Assembly (NCBI GenBank): GCA_964608725.1
Contig: CAZSPB010000001.1
Span: 235,696-299,695, forward strand
Length of the DNA stretch: 64,000 nt
Reading direction: 5' to 3'
From: an uncultured archaeon
Lineage (GTDB): Archaea > Aenigmatarchaeota > Aenigmatarchaeia > Aenigmatarchaeales > Aenigmatarchaeaceae
In this document: one piece after another, positions 1 through 6,000 of the stretch
Layout: every line of letters starts with the position of its first letter
Position numbering within the stretch: position 1 is the first letter of the stretch
Program-made: the position numbers

Positions 1-3000
1 AGCCAGCTGAACAGGTTATTACAAAGTCTAGATAGCCTGTAGATGAGGAACCTGCCACATAAGTTGTTGATCCATTAGCGATATCACCTACGTCGGTCGA
101 ACCTACATATACATTACCTGTTGTTCCTGACTGGTTTAAGTAAAGTGGTATCATACCAACTTTGGCATATTTGCCTGTTGAAGAAATGTTTACGGTGTTG
201 TTTCCATAGTAGATGTACAATCCTCCCTGTCCGTTAGTTATCAACTTTGGTACAAAGTAGGAGTAGTCAGCTCCTTGTGAATAACCTGTTTCTCCTGATG
301 TTGGGTTAACACCTGCTATATCTCCATCCCCATTCAAGTCAACTTTTATTATCTTGTTTGAAGCATCTATCACTTCTACTGAATAGGAGAATCCATCTAA
401 TATCAAAGTTGCATCTGCTGCCGTGTTAGAGTCTGTATAACTAATTGTTATTGCTTGTCCTGTTCCAACATCTGTGAATGAAAGTTGTGTATTTGAAGAA
501 TCTAAACTTGTGAATTGTAGCACGTGAGTGAAACCACCTGTTCCTATTACGAAGTAGTCTCCTTGTGTTGCACTTATGTTTTGATATTCATCTGTTACTA
601 AGTCTATAGTACTTGTTTTACCATTATACCATGTTCCTCCTGAGTAATAGAACACATCCACTTGTTCTGTTGTTCCTAATGCATTTGTATAGGATAACCT
701 TACATTAGGACCTGAAGATAAGTACTGAATTGTTTGTCTGTTTGTTGTGTCATCAAATTCTGGATAGAATGAATTGAACTTTATATCAAATGCAGATGCG
801 AAAACATCTGTGAAGCTTTCTCCTTCTTTGTAAACTGTTGTAGAACTTGGTGCATAAGTCAAAGCTATGCTACTTAATTTATGGCTTGAAGATGTAATTG
901 TTGCTGTTAGTCCTGTTATTGATGCACCATCTTTCGTTACTGTACCGCTTGATGGAATTACATACTTACTTCCACCTATTGTGAATGTTGCATAACCAGA
1001 TTGACCTGCAACAACTGGTGCGAAAACTTTTGTGACACCAATTGATGTTCCATCTGATAACATTTTAGTCTGGCCTGCTCTTAACTGGAAAGATTCTCCA
1101 TTTACATCTCCTATTGCTGAGTAATAAGTACTTCCTCCAACTGATTCAGAAGCAACACTTGATAACGTTATTGTATAATCTTTTCCTCCTACTGTAACTG
1201 TTGCAGTTTCTCCTGTTTCTACTGTTGTTGTTGTTCCACCACCTAACATTGTTAGGGATGTTACAGCCCCGCTAGATACTGTTGCATCTGAAATTACAAA
1301 GTCCTTTCCAAGCATTGTTATTGTTGTTCCTTCTAATGCTGCTTCATCTGCTGAATCACTTGAACCTAAAGTTATTGGTGTTGAGAATGTTAACAAGTAC
1401 TGATATACATTATCATTTGGTAATTCTAAGTACAAACTAGGTGATGTTTCTCCTGTTGGTGTATCATATTTTACTTTTGGTTGTGTTGTTGCTGCTGCTG
1501 AAGATGTTCCACCTAAGTACAAATATTCTTTGTAAGTTCCTGTTGTTCCTGTTGATAATGCATAAGTTCCTCCTGAAAGTATGTCTAGATCTGAACTTGT
1601 TAAAACAGTTTTTACATCTCTTATGTTTGTCCAAGGTGTTAATTCATTACCAACAGTTCTTATCTTTACTCCACCTGTTACTGTTTCCCCTGCACCTGCA
1701 ACTGTTACTGTTGATGTTGTCTTTGCATTTGCTGCTAACTTTACTGCTACATCAACAGCACCTGCAACATCTGCTGTTGATGCACTTGCTCCTATTACAA
1801 ATAATGGAAAACTTACTGTTGAATCTGTTACTGTTACTAAATCACTTATTTTTCCTAATTCACTAACATTTGCTGCTAGAGCAGGGCCTGCTAATGCTAG
1901 CCCAGCCATTAAAGCTGAACCTGTTATTGCAGCTAATTTCTTGAATTGCATTTTAATACCTCCTACTTTTTTCAGTAGCCAAAATGGCTACTTGGCTACT
2001 GTTTGCGCGGTGAGTGCGCGATTGGCGCCAAAAACGCACTTCTAATAAAGATTAAACTATTCATGGCGCCATTTTCTAGATTATATTCTACTTAAAGTAT
2101 ATTATAAAAATTTCTAGAAACAGTTTCTAATCTAATTTTCTTCTTTTTAATTAAGAAAAATGAATTAAAAATAAGCTTTTTTATAGCTTTTAATTGTTTC
2201 TAAAGGCTTTTTATTCCCTTTTTTTAAATTTTCTTTCTATATAAATCTTGTTTGTTCTACCTACTCTTTCAAGTCTTATTAATCCTCTTTCTTTTAAACT
2301 ACTCAACACTTTTGAAACTTTCGCTTTGCTATAACCACTCTCTTTTACAACAACTTTTTGTTTCACACCGTTTCCATGTTTTAAAATTACATTAAAAATC
2401 TTTTTTTCATCTTCTTTTAAAACAGGTATAATAAACTTTAAACTTTTTTTAGAATAAATTTGGTAAAATACTAATGCTAAAACTATAATTACGATAATTA
2501 AAAAGATAAACTCAAGTGGAAAAGAATTCTGTACTGCACCAATTTTTTCAAAAGCAACTGAAACATCAAAAATTTCACCAGACTTCATGTTACTTTTTTC
2601 CCATGAAATTGTTGTTCTCCTTCCATCAGAACCTATTAAAGCATTTTTTGGAAAATAAGATTCTTCTATTGGTTTTCTTAAACCAGTTCCTTCAGGTAAC
2701 TTTATTATTATGAAAAAATTTTTTGTATCAAAGTTAAGCTTAAATGAATTTTTATAAACAAAATAATTTGATACTTTTTGAACATTTTTTAAATCATAAA
2801 GAATTATTACATCACTTCTTTCTGATGGTTTCAAATTACACTTTACAACCTTTCCTAAAATTTCACTTTTTTCTTCGCAATTTCCTTTTTCTATTACAAT
2901 ATTTGATGCCAAATCAAGATCTATTGAAAATGAAATTTGAGGATGATTTATAAAAATTAAATTTAATCTATGGTGAGCTGTGTTATTATCATAAATTTCA

Positions 3001-6000
3001 ACATTCATATTGTACTGATACAAACTTTCAGCAAAAGTTATTTTTGAGAATATTAAAAATATTAGAAAGAAAATTAAGAGCTTTTTCATAAAATCACTTT
3101 CCTTTTATTAGAACTATACCACCTGCACCTGCAGCAGCAAAATCATGCAAAATTTTTGCAACATTATTTAAAATTGTTTGTGCTTCATTTGCTTTTAATT
3201 CAAAGCTAGAAGGTTCTAAAATCTCTATAGCTGATGGCCCATATTCTGTCACAATTTCAACAAGATTTTCAAACTTTTTTGAAATGAGTTCAACTTCGCA
3301 AGTTAAAGAAAAACCTGAATCAACTTTTGGCAAAGGCTTCGCAACTTTTTTTAATTCCCCAAAAACTTTATGATAAATTCTTACTCTTTTATCACTATCT
3401 AAACGATTTATTAAACTTTCTAAAGATTCTTTTGCAACATTTTCGCTTACAGCTAGAACTTCAAATATCATCCAAGCTCTTAACCAACCTTCTCTAACTT
3501 TTTCGTCCGCTTCTCCTTTTTCAATCATAAAAATATTTTCTTTCTTCTATGTTTAAATCTGTTTCCATAACCTTTTTGGTATCCATTTTACTCCACGAAT
3601 AGGTATTTTCTCTCCACAATTAGGACATTTTAAATCTTTTCTTAGAAGGAAATTAGTAATACCCATAATAGTTCTTTCTATTAGCAACTTCCCACAATTA
3701 GGGCAGTAAGTATTCTCGTATTTGTGACCATGTACATTTCCCAAGTAAACATATTTCAATCCTTCCTTTTTTGCTATTAAGTAAGCTTTTTCCATAGTTT
3801 CTACTGGAGTTCTTGGGAGATTTAACAACTTATAAGAAGGAAAGAATTGAATGAAATGCAAAGGCGTTTCTGGTCCAAGATTTTCAACTATCCATTTACA
3901 AAGTTTTTTTATATCCTTTTCATTATCTCCATATTTAGGAATTATCAAGTCTGTTATTTCAATAAAAACTTTGTTTTCTTTATAAGAAATTAAAGTATCA
4001 AATATTGGTTGAACTTTTGGAACTTGAGAAAGCTTTTTATAAGCTTCTAAATTTCCAGAACATTTTAAATCTACTACAACAGCATCTAAATATTTTGAAA
4101 TTTCTTTTATAGCATCTGAGGTTGTAAATCCATTAGTTACAAACATATTGTAAAAGCCATTTTTTGTTGCCAGTTCGGCTGTATCGTGAGCAAATTCAAA
4201 AAATATGGTTGGTTCAACATAAGTATAAGAAAATCCTTGGACTCCGTAATTCTTTGCTATTTTTATTAATTGTTGGGGAGAATACTCTTCTCCTCCAACA
4301 TCTTTCCATTCTTGTGATATTTCCCAATTACAACAAAAAGAGCACCTGAAGTTGCAACCTACTGTTGAAATTGAAAGTGTATGAGAACCTGGAGCAAACA
4401 TATTTAATGGTTTTTTCTCTATAGGATCAATGGCAACAGCACAAAGTTTCCCATAAACTAAAGAAAACAACTTTCCTCCAATGTTTTTTCTAACTCTACA
4501 AAAACCAGTTTTCCCTTCGGGTATAATACAATTTCTTGGGCAAAGAAAACATTGAACTTTTTCATCTTTAAGTTTTTTGTAAAATGAAGCCTCTTTCATA
4601 AAAATTATATAGAATCAAGACTTTATACTAATATAGTCTCAAATGAAATGACGAACGGGGTATCTCAAGATTTTATGATTGAGGTTAGAGTTTCGGATCA
4701 GAGATAACAATTCAAGCCCCAGTAGCTCAGCTTGGTAGAGCGGCTGTCTCGTAAACAGCAGGTCGCAGGTTCAAATCCTGCCTGGGGCTTATTTTTCAAA
4801 ATAAGTTGATAAATTTATAAGTGAGTTTTCTTTATTGATTTTATATGCTACCAACTCTTACAGTGATAATTCCAGCAAAAAATGAAGAAAAGTATATAAA
4901 AAGTTGCCTAGAAAGTGTAATAAATTCAAACTACCCAAAAGAAAAATTGGAAGTTATAGTAGCAATAGATAGTTCTACAGATAAAACTTTAGAAATTTGT
5001 AAAAAGTTTGAACCTAGGATAAAAGTTATTGAGTTAAAGCCTAAGAAGTGTAAAGCAGAAGCATTAAATGAAGTTTTACCTTTAGCTAAGGGAGAAATAA
5101 TAGGAATATTTGATGCTGATTGCATTATTGATAAAAATTGTTTAGTTGAAGCAGTTAAACATTTTTCTGATAAAAAAATAGCTGGAGTAAGTGGTACTGT
5201 AAAAACTTATAACGTTGAACATTTTTTACCAAGAATTATTTCACTTGAAACTTGTTTCACATCTTTTATAGAATACTTTTTGAATAAATTTGGTGCTAAT
5301 GCCCACTTTTCTGGAAAGAATATGTTTATAAGAAAAAGTGTTCTAGAGAAAATTGGTGGTTTTGATGAATTTTCTTTTCTAGAAGACATTGAACTTTCTT
5401 TAAGGTTAAAGAGGTTAAAATATAAAGTAGTATTTGAACCAAAAGCAATAACTTGGCAAAACGAACCAGAAAATTTCAAAGATTTTATAGATCAAAGGAA
5501 AAGGTGGGCAAGAGGAACTTTCAGAGTTAAAAAAATTAAACATCAAAATTCGATAAAAAATTGGTTATCTGATCTTATGCATGCAATTCCTTATTATATT
5601 TCACCATTCGGCTTAATGGTACTCACTTTTCTTTTAATAGTTCTTTGGTTGAATTTACCACCTTTTATAGTATTACCACCACTCCTGTTATTCATTTTCA
5701 ATTTTGCTTTAATAATTTATTCAAGAATTTTTTTCAAAGAAAGTTTAAAAGATCTCATATTATTACCATTATGGTTTAGCTTAACAAACATTTACTCTTT
5801 CATTTTAATACCTAAAGCTTACTTAGATGAAAAAAGAAATAAGGAAATGAAATGGTAATGAATAATTGGAACATTTTTTGGAAAACTGAGAGTATAAATT
5901 CTATAGGAATGAAATATCATCACTACATAATATTCAAGATTTACAAAAATTTCTTAGATAATTTTAAGTTGAAAAAACCATCTATTCTTGAAATTGGTTG

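What a model noticed while it worked through the whole genome (the two positions that open the first line are those of the whole stretch)
1951..3089. Membrane-anchored regulator and operator upstream of the S-layer gene
g00278 (signal peptide, outer domain, one membrane helix, cytoplasmic winged helix) lies directly upstream of the S-layer gene throughout the order, and the spacer keeps a GAAAC-N-GTTTC palindrome just before the TATA box plus GAAACAATT half-sites. It is likely a one-component membrane sensor controlling S-layer expression.
Evidence so far: Homologue in 40 of 42 order genomes; next gene is the S-layer gene in about 21 of 29 relative loci; operator-plus-TATA pattern in 23 of 29; the palindrome is unique in this genome (C1:237812, call 126).
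(Added by a program. Inside this text positions count along the whole contig: contig position 235,696 is position 1 of the stretch shown here. "Call 12" and the like, gene names such as g00115 and contig names such as C1 are that model's own, and its searches are not shown. The text may have been shortened before it was handed on; [...] marks where a part breaks off. The agent that wrote the report below was given it as the finding of a first reader that could run no searches.)

Follow-up and report, generated by a model that had tools for sequence, protein, structure and literature searches.

The report
Membrane-bound switch for archaeal cell coat
A membrane-spanning protein with an inside DNA-binding domain sits just upstream of the cell-coat (S-layer) gene of small uncultured archaea, and it likely switches that gene on through a fixed set of DNA boxes at the promoter, because its paralogues each sit beside their own differently spaced version of the same box.

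The parts
2211..3089 (-). Regulator gene, 292 aa, single-pass membrane protein with C-terminal DUF7343 winged helix
3030..3089 (-). Predicted signal peptide (aa 1-20; Ala20 in 72% of 141 aligned sequences)
   Evidence: no signal-peptide predictor was run
2532..3029 (-). Outer beta-sandwich domain (aa 21-186); Cys71 and Cys84 invariant; LPEG and SDGR..W motifs; fold like the membrane-proximal luminal domain of ribophorin I/Ost1
2454..2516 (-). Membrane helix (about aa 192-212), joined to the wHTH by about 12 residues
2238..2417 (-). Winged helix (aa 225-284), predicted recognition helix SKAKVSK, wing GRTNK
2192..2200 (-). Upstream half-site GAAACAATT, 73 bp before the operator (same distance in 61 of 88 loci)
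2130..2227 (-). AA/TT tracts with 10.5-bp period across the aligned loci (predicted DNA bend)
2115..2129 (.). Predicted operator, palindrome TAGAAAC-N-GTTTCTA; core unique in the genome
2102..2115 (-). BRE-like element (2115-2110) and TATA box (2109-2102) of the S-layer promoter
   Evidence: sequence; conserved columns +13 to +25
1952..2078 (-). Predicted structured 5' leader: GGCGCC arms 2065-2070 and 2024-2029, hairpin 2005-2019, SD at 1959-1963; start site estimated, not mapped
1..1951 (-). S-layer protein gene (5' part; 899 aa, runs off the window; six N-glycosylation sequons)
3094..3528 (-). MJ0538-family gene (PF27325), ending 4 bp before the regulator; within 45 of 80 regulator loci; probably co-transcribed, role unknown

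Best explanation
This single-pass membrane protein with a cytoplasm-side winged helix likely binds the GAAAC-N-GTTTC box and the in-phase half-sites at the S-layer promoter, and is predicted to activate S-layer transcription while staying in the membrane. Shown: domain layout, synteny, fixed promoter geometry (operator next to BRE/TATA, half-sites at -22 and -73, 10.5-bp A-tracts), specificity of the element for the S-layer gene, and co-variation of paralogue with spacer length. Inferred: (1) binding by this protein, about 0.8; (2) activation through TFB/TBP recruitment, because the box lies just upstream of and not over BRE/TATA, about 0.7 if bound; (3) several tethered protomers hold one face of a bent promoter, since -22 and -73 are about 2 and 7 helical turns; (4) the ribophorin-I-like outer domain reports the state of exported or glycosylated S-layer protein, about 0.35.
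For: Adjacency in 33 of 40 order loci, and in 12 of the 30 best DUF7343 loci outside the order. Operator plus TATA in 88 of 106 S-layer upstream regions versus 4.3 in shuffles; at most 1 mismatch in 62 versus 0.35. A profile trained outside the order ranks this site first in the genome. Blind metagenome scan: S-layer gene behind 42 of 42 hits with 450 nt or more downstream; DUF7343 gene ending 89-259 bp upstream in 32 of 53. Spacer code: perfect N1 in 45 of 106 S-layer regions and no perfect N0, N2, N3 or N4; perfect N2 in 25 of 30 small-paralogue loci with no perfect N0, N1 or N3; N0 with at most 1 mismatch in 6 of 12 CWB2-paralogue loci and 0 of 12 for N1-N3. The N2 box tracks gain and loss of its paralogue: 57 of 61 versus 20 of 140 genomes; reversed control pattern in 11 of 201. 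The three subfamilies are separate starred clades, and adjacent and non-adjacent long forms share one clade, 97/80. Recognition helix nearly invariant in 141 sequences. In G057 the two genes are divergent and the operator lies between them. Archaeal activators usually bind upstream of BRE/TATA (PMC5937170, Introduction).
Confidence: 0.72

Rival explanations
1. The protein binds these boxes but senses nothing: it is a constitutive anchor and activator that holds the S-layer gene at the membrane, so that the cell's most abundant exported protein is transcribed, translated and exported in one place.
For: Very short linker between membrane helix and wHTH; sites on one helical face with phased A-tracts; usually one strict element per genome; slaA/slaB are described as constitutively transcribed in Sulfolobales (PMC5744192, passage).
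Against: The outer domain keeps invariant residues. Paralogues swap outer domains to match their neighbours: CWB2 before glycosyltransferase-4 or UDP-sugar dehydrogenase genes, a Cys loop before HMA genes. That is the pattern expected of sensors.
Confidence: 0.25
2. The protein binds the operator as a repressor that is released, for example by proteolysis, when more coat is needed.
For: The operator ends 1-2 bp before the BRE and could block TFB. In two paralogue groups half-sites flank the TATA box.
Against: At S-layer promoters all conserved sites lie upstream of BRE/TATA, the usual activator position (PMC5937170, Introduction; EarA motifs lie 9 nt upstream of the BRE, PMC10665913, passage).
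Confidence: 0.15
3. The element is read by another, soluble factor, and the neighbouring membrane gene is conserved only by ancestral gene order.
For: The element persists without adjacency. The upstream MJ0538-family and radical-SAM genes are also conserved neighbours, in 45 and 35 of 80 loci.
Against: It does not explain why other DUF7343 clades each sit beside GAAAC-based boxes with their own spacer, nor why the N2 box appears and disappears with its paralogue.
Confidence: 0.12

Closest known systems
Transmembrane transcription regulators (TTRs; ToxR, TcpP, CadC), census in PMC10269533 (passages seen)
   Same: One protein with a membrane helix and a DNA-binding domain.
   Different: The DNA-binding domain is C-terminal behind a signal peptide and outer domain, whereas ToxR/CadC have it N-terminal (recalled). 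The paper has 0 occurrences of 'S-layer' or 'DPANN' in its main text.
arCOG 'Predicted membrane-associated trancriptional regulator' groups (arCOG00374/00376/00381), PMC4858521 (passages and four supplement rows seen)
   Same: Archaeal, signal plus TM, predicted regulators; arCOG00381 is proposed to regulate neighbouring haloarchaeal pilin genes.
   Different: In the passages seen: prediction only, no operator, no S-layer target. Identity with DUF7343 could not be tested (no arCOG library).
ArnR/ArnR1 of Sulfolobus (membrane-bound archaellum activator; seen as a passage in PMC4858521 and a reference title in PMC10665913)
   Same: Membrane-bound one-component regulator of a surface-structure gene.
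   Different: Different family (arCOG05969, pfam13463), limited to Sulfolobales/Desulfurococcales archaellum loci; different target.
TFB-RF1 and EarA (soluble archaeal activators; PMC5937170 abstract and Introduction, PMC10665913 passages)
   Same: Sites at a fixed distance upstream of BRE/TATA, repeated in EarA's case.
   Different: Soluble proteins, other motifs, no outer domain.
Ribophorin I / Ost1 luminal domain (PF04597)
   Different: A non-catalytic subunit of the eukaryotic oligosaccharyltransferase with two luminal domains (PMC7226087, passages); here one domain fused to a wHTH. That chain E is ribophorin I is recalled; the fold search names only the complex.

Membership tests
DUF7343 (PF24034) | Match above the Pfam gathering score | tested here: met
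   56.9 bits versus 27.6
Transmembrane transcription regulator (TTR) | Predicted DNA-binding domain plus at least one TM region in one protein | tested here: met
   definition from PMC10269533
Transmembrane transcription regulator (TTR) | Binds target promoter and changes transcription in response to a signal | not testable with these tools
   comparative support only
ToxR/CadC type | N-terminal cytoplasmic OmpR-type wHTH and C-terminal outer domain (recalled) | tested here: not met
   order is reversed; no Trans_reg_C match
ArnR (pfam13463) | Match to PF13463 | tested here: not met
   not among 11 Pfam hits at E up to 0.1
arCOG00374/00376/00381 membrane-associated regulators | arCOG assignment | not testable with these tools
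   no arCOG library; signal-plus-TM layout agrees with the supplement rows
Ribophorin I luminal domain (PF04597) | Same fold as the membrane-proximal luminal domain | tested here: met
Ribophorin I luminal domain (PF04597) | Sequence-level membership | tested here: inconclusive
   no hit for this protein; 4 of 81 relatives weak, best E 1.6e-4; PDB profile search did not list it
Ribophorin I luminal domain (PF04597) | Subunit of an oligosaccharyltransferase complex | not tested
   the genome encodes an STT3/AglB at C1:29941, about 208 kb away; no complex was modelled
S-layer protein, S_layer_C family (downstream gene) | PF05124 match and signal peptide | tested here: met
   E 2.3e-19, 70.2 bits versus 23.9; N-terminus read by eye

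The most novel reading that the evidence does not exclude
DUF7343 proteins are a widespread archaeal envelope-surveillance family: exchangeable outer sensors on one winged helix that reads GAAAC half-sites through a spacer code (1 bp S-layer, 0 bp glycan synthesis, 2 bp metal/disulfide handling). The S-layer member carries a true homologue of the ribophorin I luminal domain and reads glycosylation or assembly of the coat at the export site, which would link a subunit of the eukaryotic glycosylation machine to an archaeal membrane-to-gene signalling receptor.
Probability: 0.25. Interest if true: 0.88.

Novelty: new variant of a known kind. Interest (0 to 1): 0.68.

Why it matters
The S-layer is the main wall of most archaea. 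The review I searched names no dedicated regulator of its gene and calls the Sulfolobales genes constitutive (PMC5744192, passages), and ten full-text searches turned up no described regulator-operator pair. This gives one, with exact sites, across a phylum of reduced archaea that keep few regulators. It also gives a testable recognition code for an uncharacterised family that rang in 9 of 14 named control genomes, four archaeal model species among them (4 over the cut-off, which four not stated). The sites on one face of a bent promoter give a direct test of how a tethered regulator reaches DNA, and the ribophorin-like outer domain bears on where that eukaryotic subunit came from.

Tried and rejected
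Homodimer prediction (aa 21-288, two copies): no verdict. Sequencing runs: no RNA holder listed, so the start site and expression are unmapped. Rfam on 8 loci: only a tRNA and one sub-threshold match; no family for the leader. Leader as riboswitch: two conserved stems, but only 1 of 10 pairs has a two-sided change in 19 sequences, and other families have unrelated hairpin leaders, so I rate it a stabilising leader. Larger regulon: the strict pattern occurred in 54 of 151 genomes, mostly once and mostly at the S-layer gene; extra sites read were mostly inside genes or lacked the -73 site, apart from a few before small secreted proteins. Extension to the G214 phylum (Hydrothermarchaeota by record title): control level. 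No relative in viral contigs or plasmids. PDB sequence searches gave no informative match. The sigma-70 scan does not apply to archaea and was at chance. One search was an uninformative short-peptide search. ORB or CRISPR-repeat readings were considered from recall and dropped: single copy, fixed to a TATA box, no array. Literature; the library lacks most subscription papers, older methanogen S-layer promoter studies among them, and the TTR census supplements were not read and may list family members.

Full report
Observation. The minus strand of window 2211-3089 encodes 292 aa with a DUF7343 winged helix at 225-284. The model (pLDDT 90.7, 45-row alignment) shows an N-terminal helix, a beta-sandwich at 23-182, a membrane helix and the wHTH. 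Cys71 and Cys84 are invariant in 141 sequences, which fits an outside disulfide. The next gene, starting at 1951, is an 899-aa S_layer_C protein. The 259-bp spacer holds a half-site at 2192-2200, the palindrome at 2115-2129, BRE/TATA at 2115-2102 and a leader of about 125 nt. Most named relatives are titled Aenigmatarchaeota.

Synteny. Homologues occur in 41 of 42 order genomes, and PF24034 in 151 of 151 sampled phylum genomes. Of 40 best loci, 33 have the S-layer gene next; one has an ORF inserted, three are non-adjacent and three have under 400 nt of contig left. Outside the order, 12 of the 30 best loci are adjacent. In a tree of 109 wHTH domains (those of my loci in which a recognition-helix pattern was found; loci were left out), adjacent and non-adjacent long forms make one clade.

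The promoter element. I collected 106 S-layer upstream regions: 34 from the order, 12 loci, and 60 picked from the matches in the 133 genomes for family spread and mostly for non-adjacency. A rule of at most two mismatches to GAAAC-N-GTTTC plus a TATA-like word found 88 of 106, against 4.3 in shuffles; at one mismatch, 62 against 0.35. In the 55 regions where the regulator was not directly upstream or was not located, 46 passed. Most of the 18 misses show the element by profile score, with a variant TATA or third mismatch; L007 and L040 are weak. Geometry is rigid: TATA at +19 to +25, a half-site at -73 in 61 of 88 (-72 in 6), another at -22 in 19, and AA/TT steps peaking at a 10.5-bp period. 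Family f8, where the regulator has separated from the S-layer gene, keeps the element by eye in both S-layer loci found. A profile trained outside the order ranks this site first in the genome. A DNA-only scan of the metagenome collection gave 55 hits: all 42 with enough downstream DNA lead into an S-layer gene, and 32 of 53 have a DUF7343 gene just upstream. Those contigs are partly redundant and the pattern came from my own loci.

Who binds it. Regulator and element are both near-universal here, so their co-occurrence proves little. The paralogues give the test. A small two-helix paralogue with conserved Cys has a perfect TGAAAC-N2-GTTTCA in 25 of 30 loci; 6 of 12 next genes tested carry an HMA domain. 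Across 201 genomes that exact box occurs in 57 of 61 with the paralogue and 20 of 140 without; the reversed control pattern occurs in 11 of 201 (kin are not independent). A paralogue with a CWB2 outer domain precedes glycosyltransferase-4 genes (5 of 5 tested) and has an N0 box, within one mismatch in 6 of 12 loci, with none for N1-N3. S-layer regions have only N1 among perfect matches, 45 of 106. In this genome the C2 paralogue is followed by two tandem half-sites and a TATA box before a gene with a signal-like N-terminus, and the C1 paralogue has half-sites flanking its own TATA box. All share an SKAKVS-like helix and differ in the wing. Against this: some paralogue groups show no box, and in the G214 phylum, with DUF7343 in 26 of 26 genomes, the N1+TATA pattern is at control level.

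Mechanism. Most likely, tethered protomers bind the operator and the in-phase half-sites on one face of a bent promoter and help TFB/TBP onto the adjacent BRE/TATA, the usual activator position (PMC5937170, abstract and Introduction). Rivals are a non-sensing anchor, a repressor, or another factor.

What is known. TTRs are a described class (PMC10269533, passages). arCOGs already carry 'predicted membrane-associated' regulators, one linked to pilin genes (PMC4858521, passages and four supplement rows). An S-layer review mentions only constitutive slaA/slaB (PMC5744192, passages). Ten searches found no DUF7343 study and no S-layer operator; subscription papers are mostly missing.

Verdict. Real, with strong comparative support and no experiment; a new variant of a known kind; interest 0.68.

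Noticed in passing
window 1952-2078 (-); L002-L036: The S-layer 5' leader in this order keeps a GGCGCC-closed junction and a GCGC hairpin with a conserved 7-nt loop ending CACC just before the SD; no Rfam match, little covariation.
   Followed up: partly
L013:2400-3455 (G015): An HTH-bearing ORF with a stop after 152 codons and an endonuclease-like look (by eye) is inserted between regulator and S-layer promoter; the -73 half-site occurs on both sides of it.
   Followed up: partly
L301-L330: A small two-helix DUF7343 paralogue with conserved Cys sits before HMA, cupredoxin and DsbD-like genes with TGAAAC-N2-GTTTCA: a likely copper or redox regulon, in 61 of 201 genomes.
   Followed up: yes
L271-L282; L365, L377, L381: A CWB2-DUF7343 paralogue precedes glycosyltransferase-4 genes in this phylum; relatives with a similar recognition helix precede UDP-sugar dehydrogenase genes in the G214 phylum.
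   Followed up: partly
L332:2317-4019 (G000:C2); L340: A second long paralogue is followed by two or three tandem GTTTC half-sites at about 10-bp spacing, a TATA box and a gene with a signal-like N-terminus.
   Followed up: partly
L333:2150-2747 (G000:C1); L060: A third paralogue (151 aa) has TGAAACC and GGTTTCA flanking the TATA box of its own gene, as if autorepressed.
   Followed up: no
window 3094-3528 (-): MJ0538-family gene linked to the regulator in 45 of 80 loci; a radical-SAM gene (3553-4599) in 35 of 80.
   Followed up: partly
L334 (G057): Regulator and S-layer gene are divergent; the operator lies between them, 394 bp before the S-layer start.
   Followed up: yes
L019 (G003:C9): The regulator appears in two pieces in this assembly; assembly error or real break not determined.
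   Followed up: no
L412, L413: In two genomes of the G214 phylum an N1-like box plus TATA precedes a 100-aa PadR-like (by eye) gene resembling one at L331:3270-3572.
   Followed up: no
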